The notes beneath the pieces were generated by a model. That model worked only from the letters and a program-made list of their open reading frames with translations. It did no database searches and was not told where the DNA came from. From an uncultured Gammaproteobacteria bacterium (GTDB taxonomy: Bacteria; Patescibacteriota; Patescibacteriia; Patescibacteriales; CAYTAV01), in NCBI GenBank assembly GCA_964435875.1, contig CAYTAV010000001.1, positions 2,318 to 66,317 of the forward strand: DNA of 64,000 nt, in the 5' to 3' direction. Below are positions 31,240-60,388 of the stretch, in pieces (the first letter of the stretch is position 1; every line of letters starts with the position of its first letter). The position numbers and the translations under genes are program-made.

Positions 31240-31270
31240 ATTGGAAATTGATGTTGTTATAAAAGTGGAT

Positions 31271-38801: not shown

Positions 38802-39051
38802 GATTGAAGTTTATCAGAATAACCTCAATCATGGAAACTCCTGTTCCGGTTATCTTAAGCAAAATGTATGTTGTTTAATTCCAAAAAGGACCGAATTCGG
38901 TGGTTTTTTTGGAATATGCGGGGTTTCCGCCTGTGCGAACGCTTCGGCGGATAAATATCTCTGCGACCTTCCCGCAACTTTGCGGGACGTTTCTCGCCCG
39001 AACGTCCAAAATTATTCGGTCGGGCAGGGAACCAACAAAAAACTCCCGGAG

Positions 39052-39125
39052 CGGAGCGGACGGGACTCGAACCCGCGACCTCTGCCGTGACAGGGCAGCG
39101 TTCTAACCAACTGAACTACCGCTCC
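39052..39125 (-). tRNA. tRNA-Asp (GTC)
   Basis: Cloverleaf GGAGCGG-TA-GTTC-AGTTGGTTA-GAAC-G-CTGCC-CTGTCAC-GGCAG-AGGTC-GCGGG-TTCGAGT-CCCGT-CCGCTCC-G. No CCA is encoded. Confidence 0.9.
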
Positions 39126-44730: not shown

Positions 44731-44797
44731 TGATAAGAATGTAATATTAATTAGATTGTATCGTCTTATTGGCATAAAATACTACTAATGAAAATAT

Positions 44798-45067
44798 ATG
44801 AAATATTTCAAAAAAACAGTTATTACAATGGCGCTGGTTGTGTTGATGATGGCTCCTTTAGCGGGAGTTGACGCATCAAGTGGAAAAGGTAAAAACAGGG
44901 ACCTCACCAGGGAAAACAAAAGAAAACAAGTTATAATCAAAAAACTTCCTAAAACAATGAAGTATGACAACGGGGTTAAATTTAGGAGCCACAAGGAAGA
45001 TGGTCGAAGATATGGAATAATTAAATACGAAGACAGTTTCCGCCCCAAAAGTCCAAGCCATTACTGA
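44798..45067 (+). CDS. Small secreted basic protein (hypothetical)
   Basis: Signal peptide MKYFKKTVITMALVVLMMAPLAGVDA, then a Lys/Arg-rich 60-aa region. Confidence 0.4.
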   Translation: MKYFKKTVITMALVVLMMAPLAGVDASSGKGKNRDLTRENKRKQVIIKKLPKTMKYDNGVKFRSHKEDGRRYGIIKYEDSFRPKSPSHY

Positions 45068-45083
45068 AGAGAAGAGATTTTAA

Positions 45084-45112
45084 AATAACGCCCTTACAGG
45101 GCGTTATTTTTT
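45084..45112. terminator. Bidirectional terminator overlapping the sigma-factor stop codon
   Basis: AATAACGCCCT-tac-AGGGCGTTATT followed by TTTTT. Confidence 0.65.
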
Positions 45113-45621
45113 TCCTTTTTTTCCTTATCGATGCGTGTTTTCAGCATCTTTAATCCGCGGTGGATTAATACATATATATTAGAGGAGGATTTGCCGGTTA
45201 GTGTCTTAATCTCTTTAATGTCAAGCTCGTCGATGAAACGCAAAATAATGACGTCTCTGTAAGTTTTTGGAATGGAGGAGAGGTTTCTTCTGACCACCTC
45301 CATTTCGATATCAGCATCGATTGCAGCATGTATACCGTTCTGCTTATGATCAGGAAGCGCAATCGCTTCATCAAGCGCTAGCGACGGTTTCTTCGATCGG
45401 TAATAATCAATTACAAGGTTGTTTGCGACTTTATAGATAAAACTCTTTATATTGTCTATCCGTCCGCCTTCACCAATGTAGCGCCAGGCCTTCATGAACG
45501 TTTCGGACGTAAGGTCCTCTGCAAGAGCCTCATCACTTACGCGAAAATAGATATGGCGTAAAATATCCGCAGCGCTCTTGTCATAAAACTCAAGAAACTC
45601 ATTTTCGATTCCCTTGTTCAT
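45094..45621 (-). CDS. ECF-type RNA polymerase sigma-70 family factor
   Basis: Region 2 (DLTSETF.KAW....... SF.Y..A.N..IDYYR) and region 4 (R.V..LR....L...EI...TG.S..N..V..HRGL..L). No adjacent anti-sigma gene was seen. Confidence 0.8.
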   Translation of the reverse strand: MNKGIENEFLEFYDKSAADILRHIYFRVSDEALAEDLTSETFMKAWRYIGEGGRIDNIKSFIYKVANNLVIDYYRSKKPSLALDEAIALPDHKQNGIHAAIDADIEMEVVRRNLSSIPKTYRDVIILRFIDELDIKEIKTLTGKSSSNIYVLIHRGLKMLKTRIDKEKKEKNNAL

Positions 45622-46110
45622 AATCCAGTTGAAATGCGCACAATAATGATACTATGCCAACTCATAAGTGTAAATATGCCTCATGGATGATCATGCTAAA
45701 CATAATCATGCAACAGCATAAAACAGTTTAGGGATGTTTTCACCGGGATATACCGCACAGTTTATAAAATAGATTCTGCATTTGCGCAAATCGCGAGAAT
45801 ATTTCTTTCTATAGCTTATCAACGGACGACTGCCTTTTTCAACGATATTTATTGTAAAAATAGATAATATTTAAACGTATCGAAAACATAGTCGTTGAAA
45901 TGGAAAATGAATAAACAGCTTAATGAAGATCGTGATTCTTAATAATTTTTTAATCATGCTCAACTACAATCCTAGCAAGCCATAATAAGGACTAATGCGG
46001 ACAAATTCCGCAAAAGCCGGAGGCTACCAGCTAAAATAATGAAAGGTCGAGCCAGCCCCGGGCTACAGGGGAGACCTAACAGCACGTTATAATTAAATCT
46101 TCCATAACAT

Positions 46111-47778
46111 ATGAAGAACACTATAAAGAGCATCGCCACCCTTTTGGTCGTGACCGTCATGATTGTATTTGTCGCAGGACAGGTCAAGGCCGAATACCTG
46201 GCGGCGAACGTTGAGACCGGATATGAATCCGAAAATACGGTCAAAGCGGAATCTGTAAGCGAACACCTGATGGTCAACGGCAACCACGAGATGCTTTCCA
46301 ATGAAGCAGACGTCGAAGGAGAAACCGGAGATAACGATAGCGACTATAATACAGGCAAAGGCCTGGTCGACGGCGGTGACGTTGTGATCGTCGGAGGTTT
46401 TACTAGCGAAGTAAACGTCAATATGACCGAGCAGGCCAGCACCGAGCTGCATGACTTTACGGCAATGAATGACACGACCGGCGCTTATTCGGACAACGAC
46501 GCGCTTGCCTCGCTTTTCACGGCGGTTTTCGGCGCAAACGAGAACCTGGCTTTCGTCGCTAATAAGGCGAAGATCGAAGGCGAGTCAGGTGATAACGAGA
46601 CCAGCTACAATACAGGTGACGGCGAGGTCAAATCCGGCGACGCAGAGATCGACGCTAGCGTGATGAACACGGTCAACGGCAACCTGTTGATCATCGGCAA
46701 TGATATCGATGAAGAAAGCGAATCCCTGCTCGAATCGAATTCCTCCAACTCCAATACCGGAGCGAATTCGAAAAATAAGGCGAAGGTCCGCATCAACCAC
46801 ATGGCTACAGCCGAGAATATCAATATGGCCATGCTGATGAATTATCTGAAGACCGAAGCAGAGACCGGCGATAATGAATCGAGCTATAACACCGGTTCGG
46901 CCAAGATCGATACCGGCGATGCAAACACCAAGACTACGGTCAAGAACGACGTCAATTACAACCAGACCATGATCAACATGGATCTCGGAGACTCTAATCT
47001 CGAGGCTTCAAACGACACGACCGGATATGAATCCGATAACAAGGCCAAGGTCGAATTAAATAGTGTGGTCGGCGTAATGAATGCCAACCAGGCCATGGTC
47101 ATGAATAAGGTTAAGAACGAAGCAGAGACCGGCGATAACGAAGCCAGCTATAATACCGGTTCGGCAACGATCAAGTCTGGCGATGCGGACAGCCAAGTCA
47201 GCATCGACAATGGCGATACGCTCAACAAGAACGAGACCGAAGTCAATATCGATCTCGGCAACATCAGCATGACAGCATCCAACGCCACTACCGGAGCAAA
47301 TTCAACGAATAAGGCCAAGGCTGAATTCGGCAGTGCGGTTGCGGTCGGCAATACTAACGGTTTGATGCTCAGCAACGACGTCAAGTCCGAAGCAGAAACC
47401 GGCGATAACGAGGCGAGCTACAATACCGGGACCGGGAACATCACTTCCGGCGACGCCACCTCGAACGTGACTGTAAAGAACGACGCCAACTACAATTCGA
47501 CGACGGTAAACGTCGCTCCGACCGCTAATGTCCAAGCGACCAACGATACGACCGGAGCGAATTCGACCAACAAGGCCGAAGCATCATCCGCGTCTGTCGT
47601 CTCGGTTGCTAACCAAAATTGCGGCGTGATCTCGAATGAAGTCAAGTCGGAATCAAATACCGGCGGCAACTCGACGAGTTACAACACCGGAGCCGGCACG
47701 GTTAAATCCGGCGACGCAAGCATTTCCTTCGGCGTGAACAACACGACCAACGGGAACAGCACGACCATCGGCAACTAG
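46111..47778 (+). CDS. Secreted Asn/Thr/Gly-rich repeat protein (six ~90-aa repeats), a beta-solenoid or amyloid-like fibre subunit candidate
   Basis: Signal peptide ending VKA. Recurring N.TTGA.S.NKAK... and E(A)ETGDNE.SYNTG...I.(S/T)GDA...V..N motifs, with (E/S/N)(T/S)G(D/G)N at aa 71, 159, 251, 339, 429 and 516. Confidence 0.75.
   Translation: MKNTIKSIATLLVVTVMIVFVAGQVKAEYLAANVETGYESENTVKAESVSEHLMVNGNHEMLSNEADVEGETGDNDSDYNTGKGLVDGGDVVIVGGFTSEVNVNMTEQASTELHDFTAMNDTTGAYSDNDALASLFTAVFGANENLAFVANKAKIEGESGDNETSYNTGDGEVKSGDAEIDASVMNTVNGNLLIIGNDIDEESESLLESNSSNSNTGANSKNKAKVRINHMATAENINMAMLMNYLKTEAETGDNESSYNTGSAKIDTGDANTKTTVKNDVNYNQTMINMDLGDSNLEASNDTTGYESDNKAKVELNSVVGVMNANQAMVMNKVKNEAETGDNEASYNTGSATIKSGDADSQVSIDNGDTLNKNETEVNIDLGNISMTASNATTGANSTNKAKAEFGSAVAVGNTNGLMLSNDVKSEAETGDNEASYNTGTGNITSGDATSNVTVKNDANYNSTTVNVAPTANVQATNDTTGANSTNKAEASSASVVSVANQNCGVISNEVKSESNTGGNSTSYNTGAGTVKSGDASISFGVNNTTNGNSTTIGN
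46210..47775 (+). repeat. Six imperfect in-frame coding repeats, period ~87-92 codons
   Basis: Spacing of the ETGDN-type motif in the translation. Confidence 0.8.
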
Positions 47779-47797
47779 GCCAGGGCGTCAAGGCGCA

Positions 47798-47855
47798 CCC
47801 GAGGTTCATCCTCGGGCTTCGCCGCCGCCGTACAAGCCTTGACTTGTACGGCGGC
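47798..47855 (+). promoter_or_regulatory. Two strong GC-rich hairpins between the two repeat-protein genes
   Basis: CCCGAGG-ttcat-CCTCGGG (47798-47816) and GCCGCCGTACAAG-ccttga-CTTGTACGGCGGC (47824-47855). No T-tract follows. Confidence 0.5.
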
Positions 47856-47890
47856 AGAGGAGTAATATCGAATATTAACCGTAACACCAT

Positions 47891-50722
47891 ATGTCTTACC
47901 TTAAAAGCCTTAAAACACTGAAAAAAGGAGCGGCAGGAGTCATGCTGGCGATGCTCGTTGCCTGGACGATCGCCCCGATACTTAAAGCCGAAGAGGGCGC
48001 AGTTACAGGCAGTACGGCAAGCGGAACAGCAGCGGAAACCGCCTCAACGACCGAAAGTGCGGTCGCGCCGGCAGGCGAAACTTCCGCGACGGATAATTCC
48101 GAAGCCGGTATCGGGGCCGGCAACCTGGCTACCGGCGCAGATTCAAGCAATTCAGCATCGACCGAAATCAGCAATACGCAATCCGTAATTAATATTAATA
48201 CGGCAACGACCACTAACGATTCATACTTGAAAGCCGACACGGGCAGGAATACGGCAAGCTATAATACGGGGTCGGGCATCATTACGACAGAAAAAGCCAG
48301 GGGCAAGGGCGAGATCGTCAATACGATCAACCTTAATATGGTCATCCCGGAGATTGCAGGAATCGGTCCGATTTCGGCAGAAAACGGAAATACTGGCGCC
48401 AGCTCTGATAATATCGCCAAGGTCAACGTCAACAACCAGCTCACCGTACATAATTCCAACAGCGCCAATACGACGAACCTGGTCGAAGCAGAAGTAAATT
48501 CAGGCAATAACGCGGCCGAGGGCAATACCGGCCACGGCATGATCCTCACCGGATCTGCAAGCCTAGGGCTAAATTTCATTACGATGTCGAACGCTAATTT
48601 CGTCGGTTCGCAGCGCTTCTATGCCAATTGGCAGAACATTTATGATAACCATACGGGCGATATCGATATTTCGACGGAAGCGGCCGTCAGCGCTTCCCCC
48701 CTGTCCGGACTGCTGATCGACGCTTCGAACAGCGATACCGGGGCTGGTTCGAACAATCAGGCGATTGTCGATGTAAACGACCAGACGAGCATCATCAACC
48801 AGAATACCGGCAAGATCAGGAACGAGATCAGCGCCAAGGTCACAACCGGCAAGAACAAGGCCAGCAAGAATACCGGAACAGGATCGATCGCCACCGGCCA
48901 GGCGAACTCGTCAGTCAACGTGATGAATTTCCTGAATTCGAACATAGTATCCTCGAACTGGTGGCTCAAGACCTTGAACGTCTTCGGCAGCTGGAAAGGA
49001 AATATGGTATTGCCGATGATGCCGAGGCCGAACCTGACGGTTACCCAGCCGGAACTTGAGGCAAGCGCCAATGCCACCGGCGCAGGTTCTGAAAATGCGG
49101 CTGAAGCGAATATCAACACTTCGGTAGCTATAGCAAACACAAACAATGCCGTGATAACCAACAGCGTCGATATCAAGACCAACTCGGGAGACAACAAGAC
49201 CTCGTTTAACGGAGGCACCGGAATCGTAAAGTTCGGCGATGCAGACGCCGAGACTAACGAGCTTAATGTTGCGAATGTGAACGTAACGGGCGATTCATGG
49301 TGGATGGTCGTCGTTAACAAGTTCGGCAAATGGCTGGGAACGACTATCGGGTCGCCTGTCGAGACCACGGTTAGCGCGACTGCGGCTACCACAGTCCTGA
49401 CGCCCAACGGTTCGGGCATCCGGGTGAATAACAATTCGACAGGACCTGAATCGAATAACTTCGCAGGAGCGAACGTTACCCACAGCACCGAAATAACCAA
49501 TGCGAACGAAGCTGATATCATGAACAAGCTCAAGATCGAGGCGATTACCGGCGAGAACGAAACACAGTTCAATTCCGGTCACGGATATATCGAAGCCGGC
49601 AGCATCGATGCGGTCAACAATCTCGTAAATTTTGCGAATGCCAATGTCAATGTCGGCAATTGGCTGGTTACCGTGATTAACGTTTTCGGAGACTGGGAGG
49701 GTAACGTCGTGTTCAGGACCGCGACCCAATCCGAGATCGACGCCATAAATTCTAACAGCCAGCTGATGGTCAACGGTGGATCGTCGTCAAATGCAGGTAC
49801 CGGAGCAGGTTCCTCGAACAGTTCCGGTAGCAGCTCTTCCAGTACCGGAACAACATCGAATACTAACGCATCCGATACGGCAAACAACACTTCAGCTTCG
49901 ACGCTGACGGGAGAGAATTCCGCGAGCTATAATACCGGGTCAGGGATCGTTACGGCCGGCGGCGCTGATTCCAACACGACCATCCAGAACCAGGTAAATA
50001 CGAATGTTACCGGCGCATCATCAGGCGGCGGCAATGCCACATCTACGAATTCAGGAACCGGTGCCGGGTCCAATAATTCGGCGGTTACTAATAATTCCAC
50101 TGATACGAACGTAGCAAATAGCAATACAGCCCAAGTCACGAATTCCGTACAAGCCAGCAACAACACGGGGCAGAATTCGGCCAATTATAATACAGGCAAC
50201 GGTGCGGTCGATACCGGATGGGCGACGACTTTCGCGGGCCTTTATAACCAGGTTAACGAAAACCAGACCAACGCAGGCCAGCTGCTTTCCGACCTTAACA
50301 GCATAACTGATACGACCGGCAACGACATCGGTTCGCAAACGCAAGGGAACGGCTCTGGCAACCAGAATTCGGATACAACGCCCTCCGGAGGCGGCTCATC
50401 TGCCGGATCTACGTCTTCGGGGGGAGCGGGCGGCGGCCAACCCGCTCTGACGCAGACAACCGCGCCTAGCGGACAACAGACAGTCCAGAGCGCATATTAC
50501 CCCCCGGCTCCCGTCACATACGGCCAAGGCCGAACGGTCGATTCGGCGAGCGCAGAGGACGCTAAGAACGACCTTAATTCGGATGGTTATATCAACGACC
50601 TGGACTTCTCAATCTTGATGGCGAACTGGAAAAAACCGGTCCACTCGCTTAAAGCGGATATCAATAGCGACGGATCAGTCGATGAATCCGACCTGCGGAT
50701 CCTGCTCGCTAGATGGTATTGA
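47891..50722 (+). CDS. Large secreted repeat protein (same repeat class plus Trp-containing inserts), low-complexity linker and C-terminal dockerin
   Basis: Signal peptide. Repeats N.TGA.S.N.A.V.V.N ... TG.N.A..NTG.G.I.TG.A with inserts WWLKTLNVFGSWKGNMV, WWMVVVNKFGKWLG and WLVTVINVFGDWEGNVV. Ser/Gly/Asn/Thr linker. C-terminal DLNSDGYINDLD...DINSDGSVDESD. Confidence 0.75.
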   Translation: MSYLKSLKTLKKGAAGVMLAMLVAWTIAPILKAEEGAVTGSTASGTAAETASTTESAVAPAGETSATDNSEAGIGAGNLATGADSSNSASTEISNTQSVININTATTTNDSYLKADTGRNTASYNTGSGIITTEKARGKGEIVNTINLNMVIPEIAGIGPISAENGNTGASSDNIAKVNVNNQLTVHNSNSANTTNLVEAEVNSGNNAAEGNTGHGMILTGSASLGLNFITMSNANFVGSQRFYANWQNIYDNHTGDIDISTEAAVSASPLSGLLIDASNSDTGAGSNNQAIVDVNDQTSIINQNTGKIRNEISAKVTTGKNKASKNTGTGSIATGQANSSVNVMNFLNSNIVSSNWWLKTLNVFGSWKGNMVLPMMPRPNLTVTQPELEASANATGAGSENAAEANINTSVAIANTNNAVITNSVDIKTNSGDNKTSFNGGTGIVKFGDADAETNELNVANVNVTGDSWWMVVVNKFGKWLGTTIGSPVETTVSATAATTVLTPNGSGIRVNNNSTGPESNNFAGANVTHSTEITNANEADIMNKLKIEAITGENETQFNSGHGYIEAGSIDAVNNLVNFANANVNVGNWLVTVINVFGDWEGNVVFRTATQSEIDAINSNSQLMVNGGSSSNAGTGAGSSNSSGSSSSSTGTTSNTNASDTANNTSASTLTGENSASYNTGSGIVTAGGADSNTTIQNQVNTNVTGASSGGGNATSTNSGTGAGSNNSAVTNNSTDTNVANSNTAQVTNSVQASNNTGQNSANYNTGNGAVDTGWATTFAGLYNQVNENQTNAGQLLSDLNSITDTTGNDIGSQTQGNGSGNQNSDTTPSGGGSSAGSTSSGGAGGGQPALTQTTAPSGQQTVQSAYYPPAPVTYGQGRTVDSASAEDAKNDLNSDGYINDLDFSILMANWKKPVHSLKADINSDGSVDESDLRILLARWY
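50567..50719 (+). other. Dockerin type I-like module (two EF-hand-like segments)
   Basis: D-L-N-S-D-G-Y-I-N-D-L-D-FSILMANW and D-I-N-S-D-G-S-V-D-E-S-D-LRILLARW, matching the duplicated DxNxDGxIxxxD calcium loops followed by helices. Confidence 0.7.
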
Positions 50723-50755
50723 AGATGTTAAGCTGATACTCATAGAAATATTGAT

Positions 50756-51763
50756 ATGAAAAAGACATTAATCGTGTTATTTATCGGCATTAGTCTGGCT
50801 TTTTCAAAACCAGAAGCCAAAGCTGCGGGGCTGGCCGGCTATATTATATCTCCAGCGGCGCAGGAAGCGGCCAAAGGGGAGGTAGTGCAGATCCAGGTCG
50901 AGATCGACCCTAAGGGAGAAATCTTCGATACCGCCCGAGTAAAGCTGGAATATACGCCCGGGATGTTAAACCTCGAGGGCGTAGCGAAGAATACAAAATT
51001 TTCCCAGACAGCCGGAGGCAACTCCTTTTCTGATGATAGCGGCACTTTTTCTTACGGTTCAGGCCTGCCTGGCGGCACATCGGAAAAAATCAGGTTCTTA
51101 ACTCTGACTTTCCGGACTGCCAGGGAGGGAGAAGCGAAAGTTTATCTGCGCGATGATTCATTGATCGCAAGCAACGGCATCAACGTGAGCGACTGCCGTA
51201 GCAATATGGCAACGATCAGGATCGGCAAAGCCAAGGCTAAAGTGCTGGGAGTCAAGCTCTATCCGGACGGAACGCTCTTGCGCAATTCTAAGACGAGGGA
51301 AATTTTCTACATTACGGGCGGCGCCAAGAAAAAGGTCGCAAGCCTCAAGGAGCTGGCCGCATACGGCAAGAAGACGATCATCAACGTTTCGCCCGAGGCC
51401 CTGGACGGTTATCTTCCATATGCAAACGGAACGCTCTTGCGCAATTCTAAGACGAGGGAAATTTTCTACATTACGGGCGGCGCCAAGAAAAAGGTCGCAA
51501 GCCTCAAGGAGCTGGCCGCATACGGCAAGAAGACGATCATCAACGTTTCGCCCGAGGTCCTTTCGCAATTCCCCGTTTTCAGCACTACCGGCAGCCAGCT
51601 AGCCGAAGGCGCTCTGGTCAGGGATAAAACCAGCAAGAGGATTTATGTGGTCAGCGGCGGTAAGAAATCACTAATCGCTACGCTGGCAGACCTATCGAAA
51701 TACCGAGGCAGGCAGATTATCGATATCGATCCAGGCTTGTTGTCTCAGTATCCGACCTCATGA
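50756..51763 (+). CDS. Secreted cohesin-like domain protein with three C-terminal ~53-aa repeats (putative wall-binding)
   Basis: Signal peptide. KGEVVQIQVEIDPKGEIFDTARVKLEYTPGMLNLEGV resembles the cohesin N-terminal strands. The repeats are GTLLRNSKTREIFYITGGAKKKVASLKELAAYGKKTIINVSPE.L x2 plus a diverged third copy. Confidence 0.6.
   Translation: MKKTLIVLFIGISLAFSKPEAKAAGLAGYIISPAAQEAAKGEVVQIQVEIDPKGEIFDTARVKLEYTPGMLNLEGVAKNTKFSQTAGGNSFSDDSGTFSYGSGLPGGTSEKIRFLTLTFRTAREGEAKVYLRDDSLIASNGINVSDCRSNMATIRIGKAKAKVLGVKLYPDGTLLRNSKTREIFYITGGAKKKVASLKELAAYGKKTIINVSPEALDGYLPYANGTLLRNSKTREIFYITGGAKKKVASLKELAAYGKKTIINVSPEVLSQFPVFSTTGSQLAEGALVRDKTSKRIYVVSGGKKSLIATLADLSKYRGRQIIDIDPGLLSQYPTS
50825..51193 (+). 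other. Cohesin-like module
   Basis: The pattern G(D/E).V.I.V.I......I......L.Y.P..L....V is followed by beta-rich segments ending ..FRT..EG.A.V.L. Confidence 0.5.
51267..51557 (+). repeat. Tandem duplication: two 100%-identical 132-bp copies (51267-51398 and 51426-51557), period 159 bp
   Basis: Direct comparison of the nucleotide strings. The first mismatch is at 51399 versus 51558. Confidence 0.9.
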
Positions 51764-51968: not shown

Positions 51969-54713
51969 ATGGAACAATACATCAAATATACATCGAAATA
52001 TCATGCAATCCTGCTCATGTCCGTGGCAATCGCGGTTTTTTACCTTGTCAGCCATTCCAGCTACCTCCTTTTCCATTTTTTAGTCGAAATCATAGGAGTC
52101 GTCGTCGCAGTTGCGGCGTTTTTTATAGTATGGAATTCTTGGCATTACATCGAAAATAACTATTTTCTCCTGGTTGGCGTTTCGTTCGTTTTTACGAGCT
52201 TCATCGACCTATTGCATCTGCTCGCCTATCGGGGGGTGAACCTCGTCGGTAATCCCGGAGACGCTGATCTGCCGATGCAGCTTTGGGTCGCGGCGCGAAC
52301 AGTATCCTCTCTTTCTTTTGCCGTCGCGCCCTACCTGGTCGGCAGGACTGCATACAAGACCAGGCATTTGTTTGTAATATATTTTATTGCCACGACAGGG
52401 CTGGTTGCTTCGATTTTTTATTTCAGGAACTTCCCACTAGCTTATACCGAAGACGGGGGGTTGACCGGCTTCAAGATCGCGATGGAGGGAGTGATCACGT
52501 TGCTTTATGCCGGCGGGGTACTAGGCTTGTATCTCAAGCGCATGCATTTCGACTCGAGAGTGCGTAATCTTATCATTTCAGCGCTGGTTATGCAGATAAC
52601 CAGGGAGATCGCCTTCACCGTCTATGCTGAACCCGGCGACCGGATCAACTTTGCAGGGCATATCCTGCATCTGGTTTCTATCTACCTGCTTTATTTAGGA
52701 ATAGTCGAAGCCTCGCTCATGAAGCCGTATCGGCTGATGTTTAAAAGCTTAAAAGACAGCGAAACCGCCCTAAAAGAAAGCGAAGCCCGTTACCGCTCTC
52801 TGGTCGAAGCTTCTCCTGATGCCATCTTGGTGCATACGCTGGGCACGGTAATGTATGCCAACCCAGCATCTGCCGAACTGTTGGGATACAAAAGTCCGGA
52901 TGTCCTGCTCGGGAAAAATATCTTTGAGATTTTCCATACAGATTCGCATGAAGCGGTCGAAGCCAGAATCGCTTCGGTTAGGAAGGGCGCGAATGAGACT
53001 CCTCTTGCCGAACTTAATGTTGTCCGCAGCGACGGTAAAAAGATCCCGGTCGAAGTAACCGGAAGATCGATCAAATACAAGAACAAACCGTCATTACAGA
53101 CCCTTTTACGTGATATCAGCGATCAGAAGAAGCGCGATTATGAACGCGACGAGCTGACAGCCCAGCTCGCACAGAAGAGCGACAGCATTGAGTTGCTTGC
53201 GGACCGGTTGAAAAAAGAACGCGATATGCTTAAAGTAATAATGGAAAATTCGGGATCGATGCTCGTTTATCTTGACCCCCGCTTCGATTTAATTAATGCG
53301 AATACGACGTTCCTGAGATATAGCGGCTTGACGACGTACGAGATAATCGGCAAGAATTTTTTCGAACTGTTCCCCGACGGGGAAATCAAGGAAATTTTTG
53401 AGCATGTCAGAGCCGCCGGCAAACCGAGGGAATTCAAGGCCCAACTCCTGTCGTTCCCGCGCATGCCAGGCGTCAAAAAGACTTATGCGGATTGGAGCTT
53501 GATACCAATTACTAACATATTCGGCGCCGTAGAAGGCCTTGTCCTTTCCTTGCAGGACGTTACCGAGAGAATCTCGAACGAGATCGAACTTAGGAGCCAT
53601 GCTGATCAACTGGAAAGGCTTTCGGTCGAACTTAGCAAGTTCCGCATGGCTGTCGATAACGCGGCAGACCACGTCGTAATTACCGACAAGGAAGGCAAGA
53701 TAATCTACGCTAATGACGCAGCCGAAAGGATTACCGGTTATGCGAAGCATGAAATGATAGGACGCTCTCCGGCTCTCTGGGGCAATAGAACCAGGATGTC
53801 TGACGGCCAGGGTACTTATACCGAGGCGTCGGTCTGGCAGGATCTTGGGCAGTCCGAGACTTTTGAAGGCGAGGTCTTAAATATCAGGAAGGATGGGACA
53901 AATTATATTGCTGATCTGCATATCGCTCCTGTTTATTCAGAAGAGGGCGAAACAGTCTTTTTTATCGCGATCGAGCGGGACGTGACCAAGATCAAAGAAA
54001 TCGACAGGGCTAAGGACGAATTCATCTCTTTCGCATCCCATCAGTTACGGACTCCGCTGACTAGTGTCAGCCTTTCTGCTGAACTGCTTCTTCGCGGGAT
54101 CATGGGCAATGTCGAAGATAAGCAGAAGAAATACTTGCTGGAGATTTACAAATCGACGCATCATATGGCCGAGCTGGTCAATACGCTGTTGAACGTATCG
54201 CGAATCGAAATGGGAACATTTGTTATAAAAAGAGAAGAGCTCGATTTGACCGAAAAGGTCGGGCGCATCCTTGAGGATATGTATTTACAAATCCGCCATA
54301 AGCGGCTAATATTGGATACGCAATATCAAGATAGCATGCCGACCGTCTATTTCGATAAGAACATACTGCGTATCGCGCTTGAGAATCTGGTATCCAACGC
54401 TATCCGCTATACTCCGGAAGGAGGGATCATCAGGGTTGAAATCGCACAAAGCGGCGTTGAGACGATCATTTCTGTGAAAGATTCTGGCTGCGGGATTCCG
54501 GAAGAAGCCCGTCCGTACATATTCCTTAAGTCTTACAGGGCTTCGAATGCGCGCAATCTTAGCGCTGACGGATTGGGCCTCGGGCTGTATATCGCGAAAT
54601 GGGTGATTGAGAAAGCAGGAGGCCGCATCTGGTTCGATTCAATCGAGGGTTCAGGATCCATCTTCCATATCGCGATACCCGCGTCAATCGAAGATATTAA
54701 CGATGCCGAATGA
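51969..54713 (+). CDS. Sensor histidine kinase (MASE3-like membrane domain, multiple PAS, HisKA, HATPase)
   Basis: About 7-8 TM helices with an H..VE......A.F...W start. Several PAS units. H-box SFASHQLRTPLTSV, N-box LVSNAIRYT, and G-boxes DSGCGI and GLGLGL. Confidence 0.85.
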   Translation: MEQYIKYTSKYHAILLMSVAIAVFYLVSHSSYLLFHFLVEIIGVVVAVAAFFIVWNSWHYIENNYFLLVGVSFVFTSFIDLLHLLAYRGVNLVGNPGDADLPMQLWVAARTVSSLSFAVAPYLVGRTAYKTRHLFVIYFIATTGLVASIFYFRNFPLAYTEDGGLTGFKIAMEGVITLLYAGGVLGLYLKRMHFDSRVRNLIISALVMQITREIAFTVYAEPGDRINFAGHILHLVSIYLLYLGIVEASLMKPYRLMFKSLKDSETALKESEARYRSLVEASPDAILVHTLGTVMYANPASAELLGYKSPDVLLGKNIFEIFHTDSHEAVEARIASVRKGANETPLAELNVVRSDGKKIPVEVTGRSIKYKNKPSLQTLLRDISDQKKRDYERDELTAQLAQKSDSIELLADRLKKERDMLKVIMENSGSMLVYLDPRFDLINANTTFLRYSGLTTYEIIGKNFFELFPDGEIKEIFEHVRAAGKPREFKAQLLSFPRMPGVKKTYADWSLIPITNIFGAVEGLVLSLQDVTERISNEIELRSHADQLERLSVELSKFRMAVDNAADHVVITDKEGKIIYANDAAERITGYAKHEMIGRSPALWGNRTRMSDGQGTYTEASVWQDLGQSETFEGEVLNIRKDGTNYIADLHIAPVYSEEGETVFFIAIERDVTKIKEIDRAKDEFISFASHQLRTPLTSVSLSAELLLRGIMGNVEDKQKKYLLEIYKSTHHMAELVNTLLNVSRIEMGTFVIKREELDLTEKVGRILEDMYLQIRHKRLILDTQYQDSMPTVYFDKNILRIALENLVSNAIRYTPEGGIIRVEIAQSGVETIISVKDSGCGIPEEARPYIFLKSYRASNARNLSADGLGLGLYIAKWVIEKAGGRIWFDSIEGSGSIFHIAIPASIEDINDAE

Positions 54714-56796
54714 CTATATGGACAACGAGGAGAAATACAAATCAACTGAAATAGTTAATCGCGGCGACAGCGCGGGCGATAAAGCGGGTGATTATGAGCG
54801 CTTGAAAACCGATTTGGCAGAGATTGAATCAAAGTACCGTATCGTAGCCGAACATACCTATGATTGGGAATTTTGGATCGATCCTGCGGGATCGTTCCTC
54901 TACTGTTCGCCTTCCTGCGAGAGGATATCGGGCAGGAAAGCCGAAGAGTTTTTGAAAAACCCTGACCTGTTCCAGGACATCGTGCATCCCGACGATACGG
55001 ATGAAATGAGGAAGCACAGGGATAAGATAGCCGAGTCCAGCAGGCCCGAAGAATTCGAATACAGGGTCATTTGTCCGGATGGAAGGATAAAATGGCTTAA
55101 CCATGTCTGTATGCCCGTTTTTGGCAGGGAGGGGCTTTATCTGGGCAGACGAGGCAGTAATCGCGACATAACTGAACGCAAGCAATTCGAAGAAGTGCTG
55201 AAGACGCAAGCCTTGGTTGTTGAGAACATGGCGGAAGGTGTGTTGGTCGCCGAGGAGGACGGCCAGATCGTTTTCACTAACCCGACGTTCGATTCGCAAT
55301 TCAGCTTTAAACGCGGGGAGCTGGTCGGAAGCAATATTTCCTCGCTGTATGCCGCCGAAAAGCAATATGACGAGGTCATGTCCAGGATCAAGCACGCTCT
55401 GGGAGAAGGTCGCAATTGGACGGGCGAATTGGCCGGCAGGACCAAGGGGGGGGAAGAATTTTTTACATATGCCAGAGTCAGCCGCCTGCAGGTTTTCGGG
55501 AGGAATTACGTAATTTATGTTCAGGAGAATATCACTGACCGGAGGATTTCTGAAAATGCTTTGAGGGATAGCGAACAGCGCTTCCGGGCGATTTTCAACC
55601 AAGCTGCCCTAGGGATTGTGCTGGCGAACATGGAAGGCCGTCCGATCGAAGCTAATAAGGCTTTCAGCGAAATGATCGGCTACTCCAAAGAGGATCTTAA
55701 GGCTATGACTTTTCTTGATTTCACTCATCCCGACGACAGAGATCTGGACAAGGAGGCGTTTGACGAGATGAAGTCCGGCTTGCGCGAAAGCTACAGCCTC
55801 GAAAAGCGTTATTTTCATAAGGATTCGAGAATCGTCTGGGTGCACGTATCAGTCTCATTGCTGCGCGGGAGGGAAGGCGAACCTGAATTCACGATCGGAG
55901 TTGTAACGGACATATCTTCAAGAAAAACGGCGGAAAGCGACCGGGAACAATTGCTTGAAGAGGTTTCAAAAAAGAATGTCGACATCGCTAGATTAGCCGC
56001 TTACCTCGAGAAGGAGCGCGATCTCTTGCAGACGATCATGGAAAATGCGGGAGCGAAGATCATGCGTCTCGGAGCGGATTTCATAATCAAGGACGTCAAT
56101 AAGGAGCTGGAAAAAAGCCTTGGCATGAGACGCGACGAACTGGTTGGCGCCAACTATTTCTACCTTTTTCCCGATGATGAACGCGAAAAAGAATTCGTTA
56201 CAGCGAGGGATGGGGGGGTGATCATGAAGGGCAAGGGTGGATCAATGCATGCAGCCGGCAGGAATCAAGGCAAAGCCGCATATTACGATTGGACGCTCAT
56301 ACCGGTCGCCGGCCCCGGGGGCAGGGTCGAAGGGCTGGTGCTTTCGCTATTCGATGTGACCGAAAGGATAACCAGGGAATTAAGCCTTAAGCTTAACGCC
56401 GAAAAACTCGATCTTGCGGCTAATGATCTAAAAAAATTCAGAGCAGCCGCAGATGCATCTTCGGATATTATCGTTATTACAGGATCGGACAAGCGTATCA
56501 TATATGCGAATTTACAGGCTCAGCTTGCGACGGGTTATACATTCGAAGAAATGGCGGGCAAGACGCCGGCGTTATGGCAGAGCAGCCGCAGACCAGATAA
56601 CGAGTTCCACGGCGGGAAAGAAAGCGTCTGGCAGGGGTCAGGCATGCTTTCCCGCCAGTTCAAGGGCACTCTGTATAATCGCGACAAGCATGGCAGGCAT
56701 TACCGGTCTCAAGCACATATTTTTCCGGTCGTCGACGAGCTTGGGGTAATAAGGCATTATGTTTCAGTCGAACGACCCGATAACCAGGAACAATAA
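54703..56796 (+). CDS. Multi-PAS protein without a kinase core (paralog of the upstream kinase sensor region)
   Basis: 4-5 PAS-like units. Long colinear similarity to aa ~420-690 of the upstream kinase. It ends right where the kinase H-box would begin. The ATG overlaps the kinase stop by 11 nt. Confidence 0.7.
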   Translation: MPNDYMDNEEKYKSTEIVNRGDSAGDKAGDYERLKTDLAEIESKYRIVAEHTYDWEFWIDPAGSFLYCSPSCERISGRKAEEFLKNPDLFQDIVHPDDTDEMRKHRDKIAESSRPEEFEYRVICPDGRIKWLNHVCMPVFGREGLYLGRRGSNRDITERKQFEEVLKTQALVVENMAEGVLVAEEDGQIVFTNPTFDSQFSFKRGELVGSNISSLYAAEKQYDEVMSRIKHALGEGRNWTGELAGRTKGGEEFFTYARVSRLQVFGRNYVIYVQENITDRRISENALRDSEQRFRAIFNQAALGIVLANMEGRPIEANKAFSEMIGYSKEDLKAMTFLDFTHPDDRDLDKEAFDEMKSGLRESYSLEKRYFHKDSRIVWVHVSVSLLRGREGEPEFTIGVVTDISSRKTAESDREQLLEEVSKKNVDIARLAAYLEKERDLLQTIMENAGAKIMRLGADFIIKDVNKELEKSLGMRRDELVGANYFYLFPDDEREKEFVTARDGGVIMKGKGGSMHAAGRNQGKAAYYDWTLIPVAGPGGRVEGLVLSLFDVTERITRELSLKLNAEKLDLAANDLKKFRAAADASSDIIVITGSDKRIIYANLQAQLATGYTFEEMAGKTPALWQSSRRPDNEFHGGKESVWQGSGMLSRQFKGTLYNRDKHGRHYRSQAHIFPVVDELGVIRHYVSVERPDNQEQ

Positions 56797-56844: not shown

Positions 56845-57516
56845 TTAGCTATTGATGCGGTAGCCGGCACCGCGCACTGTTTCTAGCAGCCGGCCGTTCT
56901 TATCCCCGATTTTTTTCCGTAGATTCGTAATATGCACATCGACTACGTTGGAAAAGGAATCAAAAGCGAAGTCCCAGATATTGGAGATTATCTGCTCCCT
57001 TCCCAGAACCTGGTTAGGGTGCCGCATGAGATATTCAAGCAGAGAGAATTCTTTCAGGGTCAGGCGTATTTCCTTGTTCGCTCGGAAAACTTTCTTCGTG
57101 ACAGGATTCAAGACGATATCCTGCAAGCGGAGTTCGGTCGGCAGCGAAGTCTGCGGCCTTCTTAATATCGCCCTGATGCGAGCCAGCAGGACTTCGAAAG
57201 TGAAAGGTTTGACTAGGTAATCGTCAGCTCCGACATTAAGGCCGGCGATAATATCATCTACGCCGTCTTTGGCAGTTAGCATCAGTATAGGCGTCGAAAT
57301 CTTTTTTTCCCTCGCTTCCTTGCAGATTTCCATCCCTCCTTTCTTGGGAAGCATGAGGTCGAGTATGATGAGATCGTAATCTTCATGGTTGAGTTCGATT
57401 CGCAGTTGTCCGGATTCTCCGTCCAGGCAAAAATCAACGGCAAAACCTTCTGCTTCCAAGCCGTCCTTGATCAGATGAGCGAGGTTTTCCTGGTCTTCGA
57501 TTACCAAAATCCGCAT
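56845..57516 (-). CDS. OmpR/PhoB-family response regulator
   Basis: REC domain (MRILVIEDQ...LIILDLMLP...K) and a winged-helix output (LT.KEF.LLEYLM....V..R..I....W.......NVVDVHI.NLRKKI......T.RG.GY.I). Confidence 0.9.
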   Translation of the reverse strand: MRILVIEDQENLAHLIKDGLEAEGFAVDFCLDGESGQLRIELNHEDYDLIILDLMLPKKGGMEICKEAREKKISTPILMLTAKDGVDDIIAGLNVGADDYLVKPFTFEVLLARIRAILRRPQTSLPTELRLQDIVLNPVTKKVFRANKEIRLTLKEFSLLEYLMRHPNQVLGREQIISNIWDFAFDSFSNVVDVHITNLRKKIGDKNGRLLETVRGAGYRINS

Positions 57517-59665: not shown

Positions 59666-59739
59666 GGGCAATTAGCTCAGTTGGTTAGAGCGCAACACTG
59701 ATAATGTTGAGGTCGGAGGTTCGACTCCTCCATTGCCCA
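59666..59739 (+). tRNA. tRNA-Ile (GAT)
   Basis: GGGCAAT-TA-GCTC-AGTTGGTTA-GAGC-G-CAACA-CTGATAA-TGTTG-AGGTC-GGAGG-TTCGACT-CCTCC-ATTGCCC-A. Confidence 0.9.
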
Positions 59740-59839
59740 CCGAATAGTAAAAGTCTAAAGTGTCAAGTTAAAAGCTGTTGTTTTTTGAATTTTTTCAATA
59801 TGATTTTGCACCTTTTACTTTCTATCTAAATTATTTTAT

Positions 59840-59912
59840 AGCGGGGTAGAGCAGCTGGCAGCTCGCCAGGCCCATAACCTGGAGGCCGTGGGTTCGAATC
59901 CCACCCCCGCAA
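59840..59912 (+). tRNA. Initiator tRNA-fMet (CAT)
   Basis: Nearly colinear with E. coli tRNA-fMet: AGCGGGG-TA-GAGC-AGCTGGCA-GCTC-G-CCAGG-CCCATAA-CCTGG-AGGCC-GTGGG-TTCGAAT-CCCAC-CCCCGCA-A. It has a 1:72 mismatch and A11:U24. Confidence 0.85.
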
Positions 59913-59992
59913 CATCGATGATGCCGGATAGTGGATGATGACTGCCGGATTGATAAAGCGACATTCGCTGTTCATCATTCAGCATTTATTTT

Positions 59993-60064
59993 GCCTCGGT
60001 AGCTCAGTGGTAGAGCAAATGACTGAAAATCATTGTGTCGTCAGTTCAATTCTGACCCGAGGCA
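59993..60064 (+). tRNA. tRNA-Phe (GAA)
   Basis: GCCTCGG-TA-GCTC-AGTGGTA-GAGC-A-AATGA-CTGAAAA-TCATT-GTGTC-GTCAG-TTCAATT-CTGAC-CCGAGGC-A. Confidence 0.9.
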
Positions 60065-60147
60065 CAGTAGATTTTTGTTTTTTGAAGCTAAATTATCAAT
60101 ACTGATGTAGCATCCAAGATCAATAATCCAGAATACAGTGTGCATCC

Positions 60148-60219
60148 CGGGGTGTCGTATACCGGCTAGTACGCATGCTTTGGGAGCATGTTGACTGGGT
60201 TCAATTCCCAGCACCCCGA
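60148..60219 (+). tRNA. tRNA-Pro (TGG)
   Basis: CGGGGTG-TC-GTAT-ACCGGCTA-GTAC-G-CATGC-TTTGGGA-GCATG-TTGA-CTGGG-TTCAATT-CCCAG-CACCCCG-A. Confidence 0.85.
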
Positions 60220-60316
60220 CAGAATAATTAAGGATCAGCGGTTTAGGAACGATAAAAGCCAGGTGAAATAAATTGTGTTAATCAGAAATCAAAAAACACA
60301 AATCAAGAATATTCTC

Positions 60317-60388
60317 GCGGGTATAGTATAGTGGCTTTTATGACAGCCTTCCAAGCTGTAGAGGGGGGTTCGATTCCCCCTACCCGCT
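60317..60388 (+). tRNA. tRNA-Gly (TCC)
   Basis: GCGGGTA-TA-GTAT-AGTGGCTT-TTAT-G-ACAGC-CTTCCAA-GCTGT-AGAG-GGGGG-TTCGATT-CCCCC-TACCCGC-T. The D stem is weak. Confidence 0.8.

What the first reader, a model, noticed from the sequence alone, without database searches (positions are those of the whole stretch)
45094..51763. ECF-sigma-linked locus encoding curli-like Asn/Thr/Gly repeat fibre proteins joined to a cohesin-dockerin pair
A lone ECF sigma gene (45094-45621, minus strand) has no visible anti-sigma partner. It is divergent from a ~490-bp leader and three co-directional secreted proteins.
- The first is a 555-aa protein made of six ~90-aa repeats.
- The second is a 943-aa protein with the same repeat grammar plus Trp-rich inserts, a low-complexity linker and a terminal dockerin.
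- The third is a 335-aa protein with a cohesin-like module and three ~53-aa repeats of a type I associate with wall-associated proteins.

The repeat grammar is (N/T)TGAxSxNxAxV ... ETGDNxxSYNTGxxxIxTGDAxxxVxVxN. It recalls the curli QxGxxNxAxxxQ strand-turn-strand units with N/T in place of Q, and predicts a beta-solenoid or amyloid-like stack.

My inference is a surface fibre whose major subunit is the 555-aa protein. The 943-aa protein would act as an adaptor that plugs via its dockerin into a wall-bound cohesin anchor. I do not recognise this repeat family or this combination as described.
Basis: partly seen in the sequence, partly recalled or inferred. Interest (0 to 1): 0.75.

Follow-up and report, generated by a model that had tools for sequence, protein, structure and literature searches.

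The report
Tethered repeat-protein surface cassette, Patescibacteria-type
Three adjacent genes encode a secreted repeat protein, a longer related protein ending in a dockerin plug, and a cohesin socket protein with its own anchor; the same cassette recurs widely in the poorly known ultra-small bacteria (candidate phyla radiation, CPR) and has no described function or known fold.

Summary
All four ORFs exist as described: an ECF sigma, a 555-aa protein with six ~88-aa repeats, a 943-aa paralogue (seven repeats, three Trp-rich inserts, linker, Pfam-significant dockerin), and a 335-aa protein.

- **Cohesin.** The N-terminal domain of the 335-aa protein models as a cohesin: pLDDT 88.6, and the top Foldseek PDB hits are all cohesins (TM 0.52-0.76; 0.64-0.76 for most).
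- **Repeat family.** It has no Pfam, NCBIfam or PDB match. It has 202 unnamed homologues at E <= 1e-3; where a source names the organism, most are CPR/Patescibacteria.
- **Conserved core.** The core is the gene pair short protein then long protein. The long protein is always tethered, in one of four interchangeable ways:
  - its own C-terminal membrane helix;
  - a dockerin plus a cohesin protein with a membrane helix;
  - a dockerin plus a cohesin protein with three ~53-aa repeats (this window);
  - direct fusion to those ~53-aa repeats.
- **Pairing.** Dockerin and cohesin co-occur 7 of 7 times, against 0 of 15 for loci without a dockerin.
- **Hairpins.** Stable hairpins separate the first two genes in 6 of 6 loci tested.
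- **Regulators.** The ECF sigma is not found near the cassette in any related locus. An OmpR-type regulator (65-70% identical) and a MASE3/PAS kinase are.
- **Curli.** "Curli-like" holds only as an analogy.

Verdict: a real, uncharacterised surface-assembly system.

The parts
46111..47778 (+). Short (A-type) repeat protein, 555 aa. It has a signal peptide (aa 1-27) and six ~88-aa N/T/G-rich repeats (aa 33-554). It is acidic (mature pI 4.06) and has no anchor motif.
   Evidence: ORF. Repeat HMM hits. 202 homologues at E <= 1e-3. No Pfam, NCBIfam or PDB match. AlphaFold all-beta model, pLDDT 78. pI and absence of LPxTG.
47798..47855 (+). Two tandem GC-rich hairpins (stems of 7 bp and 13 bp) in the 112-nt spacer between the first and second genes. 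There is no U-tract after them.
   Evidence: Fold energy -50.1 kcal/mol, z = -5.3. Spacers at the equivalent position in five other loci give z = -4.9 to -9.8.
47891..50722 (+). Long (B-type) repeat protein, 943 aa. It has a signal peptide (aa 1-33), seven repeats (aa 78-796), three Trp-rich inserts, a low-complexity linker (aa ~797-892) and a C-terminal dockerin (aa 893-943).
   Evidence: Its only PDB sequence hit is a dockerin (2y3n_B, E = 0.006, aa 892-942).
50567..50719 (+). Dockerin module of the long protein, with two F-hand-type Ca-loop motifs.
   Evidence: Pfam Dockerin_1 at 29.6 bits against a cut-off of 22.9. The orthologous dockerins are found by phmmer at E = 5e-17 to 2e-9.
50756..51763 (+). 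Anchor protein, 335 aa. It has a signal peptide (aa 1-23), a cohesin domain (aa ~24-165) and three ~53-aa basic repeats (aa 174-333). It has no membrane helix.
   Evidence: AlphaFold pLDDT 88.6. Foldseek: the top 23 PDB hits are all cohesins; best E = 1.3e-7. 33 of 56 family members match Pfam Cohesin. Repeats.
51275..51754 (+). Three tandem ~53-aa repeats, each strand-strand-strand-helix-strand-helix in the model. Their role as an envelope-attachment module is inferred. Repeats 1 and 2 are a recent duplication.
   Evidence: Secondary structure. Direct DNA repeat of 143 nt at 97% identity, 51260-51402 against 51419-51561. pI 9.93. The same repeats are fused to a long-protein homologue in L025. 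No Pfam or PDB sequence match.
45094..45621 (-). ECF-type sigma factor, 175 aa, transcribed divergently from the cassette. A functional link to the cassette is not supported.
   Evidence: Domain matches. No homologue near any related cassette. Closest relatives elsewhere lack the cassette.
45622..46110 (.). A 489-bp AT-rich intergenic region between the sigma gene and the first cassette gene. It presumably holds the promoters; no RNA element was detected.
51969..54713 (+). MASE3-PAS-PAS-PAS histidine kinase, 914 aa, immediately downstream of the cassette. It is a candidate conserved regulator.
   Evidence: Pfam domains. A MASE3 kinase homologue is transcribed divergently from the first cassette gene in L022 (E = 5e-47).
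56845..57516 (-). OmpR-family response regulator, 223 aa. It is a candidate conserved regulator of the cassette.
   Evidence: Pfam domains. It is 65% and 70% identical to the regulators adjacent to the cassette in L002 and L021.

Best explanation
This is a Patescibacteria/CPR-type cell-surface assembly cassette.

**Shown**
- Three Sec-type exported proteins are encoded in a row.
- The first (555 aa) and second (943 aa) are paralogues built from the same ~88-aa all-beta repeat.
- The second ends in a dockerin.
- The third begins with a cohesin.
- Across genomes the long paralogue is always tethered to the cell, by one of four interchangeable means: its own C-terminal membrane helix; a dockerin plus a cohesin protein with a membrane helix; a dockerin plus a cohesin protein with ~53-aa repeats; or direct fusion to those repeats.

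**Inferred**
- The long paralogue is held at the envelope by Ca-dependent dockerin-cohesin binding.
- The cohesin protein is fixed to the wall or another anionic envelope polymer by its three basic ~53-aa repeats.
- The tethered long paralogue serves as the base or template.
- The anchorless, acidic, more highly expressed short paralogue assembles on it by beta-sheet stacking. This forms an extracellular fibre or layer.
- The hairpins after the first gene give excess short-protein mRNA relative to the other two.
- Expression is more likely controlled by the conserved neighbouring MASE3/PAS kinase and OmpR-type regulator than by the adjacent ECF sigma.
For: - **Family and synteny.** The short protein has 202 homologues at E <= 1e-3. 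The pair short-then-long is present in all fetched related loci whose contig extends past the short-protein gene.
- **Two paralogue classes.** The N.FG.W.G insert occurs in 51 of 59 long proteins and 0 of 116 short ones.
- **Anchor swapping.** Many long proteins end in a hydrophobic C-terminal helix with a basic tail. Others have a dockerin with a cohesin-TM protein (L001-3, L020). L028 has the same triad as the window. The gap-free contig L025 has a 1163-aa long-protein homologue carrying two copies of the ~53-aa repeat (E = 5.6e-15 and 1.3e-9).
- **Dockerin and cohesin.** The dockerin passes Pfam. The cohesin fold is confirmed.
- **Covariation.** Dockerin and cohesin co-occur in 7 of 7 loci, against 0 of 15.
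- **Repeat structure.** The AlphaFold model is all-beta, with two ~30-residue strands per repeat joined by G/N/T arcs.
- **Covariation analysis.** It used 704 unique repeats (Meff ~600). A band appears at i+j = 96-99 between model positions 24-40 and 57-74.
- **Which positions couple.** Only alternate (inward-facing) positions couple. Their mean score is 1.1-1.6 against a background of 0.0 +/- 0.68. Outward-facing positions sit at background. This fits face-to-face packing of the two strands, with Asn, Ala, Val and Ile in the core.
- **Hairpins.** Stable hairpins follow the first gene in 6 of 6 loci.
- **Charge.** pI is 4.06 and 4.26 for the short and long proteins, and 9.93 for the anchor repeats.
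- **Regulators.**
Against: - No experiment, expression data or complex model is available.
- Polymerisation of the short protein on the long one is an inference from paralogy, anchoring and gene order.
- The AlphaFold model of the short protein is only moderately confident. pLDDT is 78 and pTM 0.61, and the five models range from 43 to 78. Coordinates could not be inspected, so parallel stacking (solenoid) and an antiparallel meander cannot be told apart.
- Foldseek found no significant structural neighbour (TM <= 0.06 in PDB).
- The ~53-aa repeats match no known wall-binding family, and their ligand is unknown.
- The hairpins lack U-tracts, and a promoter-like site lies inside the spacer. Their effect on gene stoichiometry is therefore conjecture.
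- The organism of the window was not identified. Its GC content (48.6%) is higher than that of all related loci (34-45%).
Confidence: 0.55

Rival explanations
1. A surface coat or adhesin set that does not polymerise. The long protein is a tethered, elongated adhesin or spacer. The short protein is a separate soluble or loosely bound exoprotein, for example one that binds host cells, minerals, ice or glycans. The two paralogues do not co-assemble.
For: - Nothing found here demonstrates polymerisation.
- Patescibacteria are epibionts, and surface proteins including one dockerin protein are essential in Southlakia (PMC10633639).
- Related loci carry VWA/CLIPPER adhesin-like genes and S8 peptidases next to the cassette.
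- The Trp-rich inserts occur only in the long protein, which suggests it has a distinct function.
Against: - The short-then-long gene pairing is strict and conserved across very divergent lineages.
- The two proteins share one repeat type.
- The short protein never carries any anchor.
- These three facts are easier to explain if the short protein depends on the long one for retention.
Confidence: 0.25
2. One reading: an ECF-sigma-controlled, curli-type functional amyloid fibre.
For: - The sigma gene is divergent and adjacent.
- The repeats have invariant Asn, Gly and Thr positions in every unit.
- Covariation is restricted to the inward face, compatible with a two-layer beta stack.
- The non-significant Foldseek list consists mostly of parallel beta-solenoids, with CsgA (8c50) at rank 9.
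Against: - There is no Curlin_rpt or any other Pfam match.
- The unit is 88 aa, not about 20.
- The sigma linkage is absent from all related loci and from the sigma's relatives.
- The ECF-like promoter motif occurs at chance level.
- The sigma's closest relative (L030, 41% identity) is followed by a co-directional ORF, unlike here.
Confidence: 0.1
3. A two-dimensional S-layer-like lattice rather than a fibre. The short protein forms the sheet and the long protein is the anchoring subunit.
For: - The proteins are acidic, abundant-type and free of cysteine.
- The short protein is the first gene, with a long upstream region.
- The predicted flat all-beta plates could tile.
- The identity of CPR S-layer proteins was not found in the literature searched.
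Against: - There is no similarity to any S-layer structure. RsaA appears only as a non-significant Foldseek hit (TM 0.05).
- There is no SLH or other S-layer anchoring module.
- Nothing found here distinguishes one-dimensional from two-dimensional assembly.
Confidence: 0.1

Closest known systems
Curli system (CsgA major subunit and CsgB cell-associated nucleator, Pfam Curlin_rpt PF07012)
   Same: - Two adjacent paralogous secreted proteins are built from imperfect tandem beta repeats with conserved Asn and Gly positions.
- One paralogue is free and the other is cell-associated.
- Inward-face covariation is compatible with a two-layer beta stack.
   Different: - There is no profile match.
- The repeat is 88 aa, against 19-23 aa in curli.
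- Tethering is by a membrane helix, a dockerin or wall repeats rather than by outer-membrane CsgF/CsgG.
- Named homologues are mostly from CPR/Patescibacteria.
- Amyloid character is untested.
Cellulosome anchoring by type I/II cohesin-dockerin pairs (for example Clostridium scaffoldins with SLH or sortase anchors), and non-cellulosomal cohesins such as Archaeoglobus fulgidus 2xdh
   Same: - A dockerin with two Ca-loop motifs sits on the cargo.
- A single cohesin sits on a separately encoded, surface-anchored protein.
- The cohesin fold gives TM 0.64-0.76 against most solved cohesins among the top hits.
   Different: - The cargo is a structural repeat protein, not an enzyme or scaffoldin.
- The anchor is a membrane helix or a new ~53-aa repeat, not SLH or LPxTG.
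- The window's own cohesin sequence falls below Pfam's threshold.
- Binding was not tested.
Sortase-assembled Gram-positive pili (major pilin plus wall-anchored basal pilin)
   Same: - The logic is the same: an anchored base subunit plus an unanchored major subunit from paralogous genes.
- Distant cassette versions carry a third paralogue with LPVTG, a membrane helix and a basic tail.
- L028 has a sortase gene nearby.
   Different: - The three window proteins have no LPxTG motif.
- There is no pilin (CnaB/Ig) fold.
- Attachment here is non-covalent, through cohesin-dockerin.
Archaeal sheath (SH) amyloid-like proteins of Methanospirillum and Methanothrix
   Same: - They are secreted envelope proteins with a core of two stacked beta-sheets that build a resistant outer structure (PMC11576556).
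   Different: - That paper reports no bacterial structural homologues.
- The Foldseek PDB search returned no sheath protein.
- The repeat architecture differs.

Membership tests
Curli / Curlin repeat (PF07012) | Significant match to the Curlin_rpt profile | tested here: not met
   Pfam-A scan of both repeat proteins at E <= 1 returned no family for the 555-aa protein. For the 943-aa protein it returned only the dockerin and a sub-threshold EF-hand hit.
Curli / Curlin repeat (PF07012) | Strand-turn-strand unit of about 19-23 aa | tested here: not met
   The unit is ~88 aa (HMM of 88 positions). In the model each unit has two ~30-residue strands.
Curli / Curlin repeat (PF07012) | Cross-beta amyloid properties (ThT or Congo-red binding, SDS resistance) | not testable with these tools
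   Needs recombinant protein.
Cohesin (PF00963) | Profile match to the Cohesin domain | tested here: inconclusive
   The window protein itself gives no Pfam Cohesin hit. However, 33 of 56 aligned homologues do (best E = 2.8e-9). Syntenic orthologues pass the cut-off of 24.1 bits, at 26.2 and 32.5 bits.
Cohesin (PF00963) | Nine-stranded jelly-roll cohesin fold | tested here: met
   AlphaFold pLDDT is 88.6, and 93-98 over most of the domain. The top 23 Foldseek PDB hits are all cohesin modules: E = 1.3e-7 to 1.7e-5, probability 1.00, and for most of them TM (target-normalised) 0.64-0.76 with rmsd ~3 A.
Cohesin-dockerin pair | Ca-dependent binding between the two modules | not testable with these tools
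   Only indirect evidence is available. Cohesin and dockerin co-occur in 7 of 7 loci where the long protein has a dockerin, against 0 of 15 others. No complex prediction was available.
Dockerin type I (PF00404) | Profile match above the gathering score, and two Ca-binding loop-helix segments | tested here: met
   29.6 bits against a cut-off of 22.9, at aa 893-938. DLNSDGYINDLD and DINSDGSVDESD are readable in the sequence. There is a PDB dockerin hit, 2y3n_B, at E = 0.006.
ECF (group 4) sigma-70 factors | Regions 2 and 4 only, and a match to the ECF superfamily model | tested here: met
   Sigma70_r2 and Sigma70_r4_2. TIGR02937 at 69.3 bits against a cut-off of 42.9. No specific subgroup model reached its cut-off.
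ECF (group 4) sigma-70 factors | Co-transcribed cognate anti-sigma factor | tested here: not met
   A terminator-like hairpin overlaps the 3' end of the gene. The neighbouring small ORFs have no anti-sigma family match.
Known wall-binding modules (SLH, LysM, CW_binding_2, SPOR, PG_binding) | Profile match of the ~53-aa repeats | tested here: not met
   There is no Pfam or NCBIfam hit above noise. A repeat profile found nothing in PDB sequences or in the large protein collection.
Sortase substrates (LPxTG) | C-terminal LPxTG, then a hydrophobic segment, then a basic tail | tested here: not met
   None of the three window proteins has an LP.[TSA]G motif. The motif is present in the third paralogue of distant loci.
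Parallel beta-solenoid / beta-helix | Structural superposition on a solved beta-solenoid, and in-register stacking of repeats | tested here: inconclusive
   The Foldseek hit list consists mostly of beta-solenoids, but no hit is significant (best E = 0.21, TM <= 0.06). Covariation restricted to the inward face fits two-layer packing.

The most novel reading that the evidence does not exclude
The short/long protein pair is a new, Patescibacteria-wide class of extracellular beta-stack polymer. The tethered long paralogue templates assembly of the free short paralogue, much as CsgB templates CsgA, but using an 88-aa repeat with a fold that has no solved relative. It would then be the molecular identity of surface fibres or layers of these ultra-small bacteria. 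The natural swapping among membrane helix, cohesin-dockerin and a new ~53-aa wall-binding repeat would show how such organisms attach it.
Probability: 0.35. Interest if true: 0.85.

Novelty: new variant of a known kind. Interest (0 to 1): 0.68.

Why it matters
- **An unexplored group.** Patescibacteria/CPR make up a large share of bacterial diversity. They live attached to other cells, yet the proteins that build their surface structures are largely unknown.
- **A candidate component.** This cassette is conserved across many CPR lineages: Saccharibacteria, Woykebacteria, Gottesmanbacteria, Levyibacteriota, Daviesbacteria and Staskawiczbacteria. It has no annotation, no Pfam family and no structural relative, so it is a concrete candidate for a major envelope or attachment structure.
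- **A structural role for cohesin-dockerin.** The pair is used here to tether a structural protein, not to organise enzymes.
- **A natural experiment.** The four-way interchange of anchors assigns a function to an uncharacterised ~53-aa repeat.
- **Directly testable.** Each part can be tested with recombinant domains.

Tried and rejected
1. **Exact look-up of the 555-aa protein's contig.** Nothing was on record.
2. **First genome-contig scans.** The scan with the single protein found nothing. A four-sequence alignment worked.
3. **RNA element in the 489-bp "leader".** There is no Rfam family at gathering threshold. At E <= 1 the only hit is a chance-level Y_RNA match. Folding gives z = -1.0. 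Rejected.
4. **ECF-type promoter.** A single palindromic AAC-N16-CGT site lies at 45872-45898. The window-wide rate of 1.27 sites per kb makes one site in 0.5 kb unremarkable. Rejected as evidence.
5. **The ~53-aa repeats as a known wall-binding domain.** There was no hit in Pfam, NCBIfam or PDB sequences, and none in the large protein database with a 16-repeat profile.
6. **The 88-aa repeat as a duplicated 44-aa half-unit.** hhalign of the two halves gave probability 1.4%. Rejected.
7. **Strong covariation couplings among near-invariant motif positions** (for example 4-52, 4-24, 5-41). These are inconsistent with both simple topologies. They were set aside as likely effects of repeat subtype or alignment rather than physical contacts.
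8. **Foldseek of the short-protein model against viral structures.** Only low-TM noise was returned.
9. **Fusion seen in L021.** It crosses an assembly gap, so it was not trusted. It was confirmed on the gap-free contig L025.
10. **Literature searches.** Searches for CPR cohesin/dockerin, sortase and S-layer proteins found nothing that describes this family.
Full report
**1. Checking the observation**

*Sigma factor (45094-45621, minus strand, 175 aa).*
- It matches Sigma70 regions 2 and 4.
- It matches the ECF superfamily model TIGR02937 at 69.3 bits against a cut-off of 42.9. It reaches no subgroup-specific cut-off.
- A 13-bp terminator-like hairpin lies at 45082-45110 and overlaps the 3' end of the gene. 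It has T-runs on both strands.
- The next ORF is convergent. Neither small ORF there matches any family. "No visible anti-sigma partner" is therefore correct.

*Intergenic region.* The 489 bp up to the first cassette gene are AT-rich. They show no Rfam family and no unusual folding (z = -1.0).

*555-aa protein.*
- A repeat HMM built from it and its orthologues finds six units, each scoring 71-82 bits.
- The same HMM finds seven units in the 943-aa protein.
- Composition is dominated by N, T, S, A and G.

*943-aa protein.*
- It also has three Trp-rich inserts with the motif N.FG.W.G.
- A low-complexity linker follows the repeats.
- Its C-terminal segment passes Pfam Dockerin_1 (29.6 bits, cut-off 22.9). 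Two Ca-loop motifs are readable in the sequence.
- Its only PDB sequence hit is a dockerin.

*335-aa protein.* It has three ~53-aa repeats. The first two are a recent duplication, 143 nt at 97% identity.

*Signal peptides.* All three proteins have N-termini typical of signal peptides. This was judged by inspection only.

**2. The cohesin claim**

- The window protein itself gives no Pfam Cohesin hit.
- An exhaustive HMMER search with aa 1-175 found 348 relatives at E <= 1e-3.
- Of 56 aligned relatives, 33 match Pfam Cohesin.
- The syntenic orthologues in L002 and L003 pass the gathering score.
- AlphaFold on that alignment gave pLDDT 88.6.
- The top 23 Foldseek PDB hits are all cohesin modules. 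Probability is 1.00, and for most of them TM is 0.64-0.76 with rmsd about 3 A.
- The cohesin fold is therefore established. Binding to the dockerin is not.

**3. The repeat family**

*Sequence searches.*
- Neither repeat protein matches any Pfam or NCBIfam family outside the dockerin.
- A profile of 15 orthologues finds nothing among PDB sequences.
- The 555-aa protein has 202 homologues at E <= 1e-3. All are unnamed or "hypothetical".
- Where an organism is named, it is mostly a CPR/Patescibacteria MAG. Several records labelled "uncultured Gammaproteobacteria" sit among them.

*Structure model.*
- AlphaFold gave pLDDT 78 and pTM 0.61, with the other four models scoring lower.
- The model is all-beta. 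Each repeat has two ~30-residue strands.
- The strands are joined at one end by the TTGAxS arc. At the other end they are joined by the TGDNxxSYNTGxGxIxTGDA segment, which forms two short strands.
- Foldseek found no significant neighbour in PDB (best E = 0.21, TM <= 0.06) or in BFVD.
- The non-significant PDB list consists mostly of parallel beta-solenoids, including curli CsgA at rank 9.

*Covariation analysis.*
- I ran a mean-field direct-coupling analysis on 704 unique repeats (Meff ~600).
- The top couplings form a band at i+j = 96-99 between model positions 24-40 and 57-74. Examples are 28-69, 24-72, 32-67 and 36-63.
- Only alternate positions, the Asn/Ala/Val/Ile face, couple. The other face sits at background.
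- This supports packing of the two long strands against each other. It also fits a two-layer arrangement with a buried Asn/aliphatic core.
- It cannot tell whether successive repeats stack in parallel (solenoid) or hydrogen-bond as an antiparallel meander.
- The "beta-solenoid or amyloid-like" prediction is therefore compatible with the data but unproven. Membership of the curli family is rejected: there is no profile match, and the unit is 88 aa against about 20.

**4. Comparative anatomy, the main result**

*The conserved pair.* Across the related loci I fetched, the conserved core is a gene pair.
- The first gene encodes a short repeat protein of 366-560 aa.
- The second encodes a long repeat protein of 628-1163 aa.
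- The Trp-rich insert motif marks the long class: 51 of 59 long proteins against 0 of 116 short ones.

*The short protein never has an anchor.*

*The long protein is tethered, in four alternative ways.*
- (i) In 14 distant loci many long proteins end in a hydrophobic C-terminal helix followed by a basic tail. A third paralogue there often carries LPVTG, a helix and a basic tail, which is a sortase signal.
- (ii) In L001/L004, L002, L003 and L020 it ends in a dockerin. A downstream gene encodes a cohesin protein with a C-terminal membrane helix. L019 also has a dockerin and a downstream cohesin gene, but no C-terminal helix was shown for that cohesin protein.
- (iii) In the window and in L028/L029 it ends in a dockerin. 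The cohesin protein carries three ~53-aa repeats instead of a helix.
- (iv) In L021-L025 it is fused directly to two copies of the same ~53-aa repeat. I confirmed this on the gap-free contig L025, where the long protein is 1163 aa (repeat HMM E = 5.6e-15 and 1.3e-9).

*What this shows.*
- Dockerin and cohesin covary perfectly: 7 of 7 distinct dockerin loci, against 0 of 15 others.
- The pair is therefore a genuine tether.
- It also assigns the ~53-aa repeats a role as an envelope-attachment module.
- In the window these repeats are strongly basic (pI 9.93), while the two repeat proteins are acidic (pI 4.06 and 4.26).
- What the repeats bind is unknown. No known wall-binding family matches them.

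**5. Expression signals**

- The spacer between the first and second genes folds into two very stable hairpins in the window (-50.1 kcal/mol, z = -5.3).
- The equivalent spacers in five other loci give z = -4.9 to -9.8.
- The hairpins are conserved in position, not in sequence. They lack U-tracts.
- I read them as intercistronic elements that stabilise or attenuate the transcript. That would favour excess of the first product. This is an inference.

**6. Regulators**

*The sigma linkage is not conserved.*
- No homologue of the sigma lies in the fetched flanks (5-8 kb requested; less on short contigs) of any related cassette.
- A metagenome scan with the sigma found relatives at 41% identity or less. 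None lies next to a repeat gene.
- The closest relative is followed by a co-directional ORF that the window lacks.

*A two-component system is a recurrent neighbour.*
- The OmpR-family regulator at 56845-57516 is 65% identical to the regulator adjacent to the cassette in L002, and 70% identical to the one in L021.
- That is far more conserved than the structural proteins.
- A MASE3 kinase like the one at 51969-54713 is transcribed divergently from the first cassette gene in L022.
- The two-component system is the better-supported candidate regulator. The sigma's adjacency may be incidental.

**7. Mechanism proposed**

- Shown: export signals, paralogy, the dockerin, the cohesin fold, anchor interchange and gene order.
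- Inferred: the long protein is held at the envelope via dockerin-cohesin, and the cohesin protein is fixed by its basic repeats.
- Inferred: the anchorless short protein assembles on the long one by beta-sheet stacking into a fibre or layer.
- Rivals are a non-polymerising adhesin set, an S-layer-like lattice, and the original sigma-controlled curli reading.

**8. Novelty**

- I found no description of this family in the searchable literature.
- The logic resembles curli (CsgA/CsgB), sortase pili (major pilin plus basal pilin) and cellulosome anchoring.
- The repeat, its predicted fold and the ~53-aa anchor module are new.
- I rate it a new variant of a known kind of system, with interest 0.68.

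Noticed in passing
window 26613-31344 (minus strand): Five consecutive genes (228, 407, 228, 394 and 312 aa) lie in a stretch with low GC (0.37-0.42, against ~0.49 for the window). None has a significant Pfam or PADLOC family. Two have sub-threshold T4SS_pilin hits (E = 0.0075 and 0.00046). This may be an island or a secretion or pilus-related block.
   Followed up: partly
window 51260-51402 and 51419-51561: Repeats 1 and 2 of the anchor protein are a 143-nt direct DNA repeat at 97% identity. This indicates a very recent tandem duplication of the anchoring module.
   Followed up: yes
window 57624-59459 (minus strand): A 611-aa protein has bacterial TSP3 (Ca-binding) repeats and a CAP/SCP domain. 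It is another likely secreted protein, and it lies next to the response regulator.
   Followed up: no
window 59666-60389: A cluster of five tRNA genes (Ile-GAT, Met-CAT, Phe-GAA, Pro-TGG, Gly-TCC) on the plus strand. A separate tRNA-Asp lies at 39051-39125.
   Followed up: no
window 44798-45067 (+) and 44785-45048 (-): Two overlapping antisense small ORFs lie just beyond the sigma gene's terminator. The plus-strand ORF encodes an 89-aa very basic protein with a signal-peptide-like N-terminus. The minus-strand ORF (87 aa, TTG start) is hydrophobic. Neither matches a family, and which one is real is unresolved.
   Followed up: partly
L003, L019, L020 (related loci): In one subclade the cassette is flanked upstream by a VWA plus CLIPPER(DUF11) surface protein. 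A subtilisin-like S8 peptidase is inserted between the dockerin protein and the cohesin protein. This hints at proteolytic processing in some versions.
   Followed up: no
L001 12026-13051, L002 8210-9178, L028 7507-8442; protein P0152: A fourth conserved gene follows the cohesin gene in several loci. It encodes a ~310-340-aa protein with a signal peptide and a C-terminal membrane helix (31% identity between L028 and L002, E = 2e-50). In P0152 (568 aa) it appears, by eye, to be fused to a cohesin domain. The window has no copy of it.
   Followed up: partly
L007, L009, L012, L015, L016, L017 (short-protein homologues): The short proteins of distant loci end in a conserved aromatic/hydrophobic tail, for example FDLGDLLDALGL or FSWAAFFATFG. 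This tail is absent from the window's 555-aa protein. Its meaning is unknown.
   Followed up: no
whole window against related loci: The window's GC content is 48.6%, while all fetched related loci have 34-45%. The window also carries several large PAS-rich sensor kinases, at 8843-10717, 51969-54713 and 54607-56796. The organism could not be named.
   Followed up: partly
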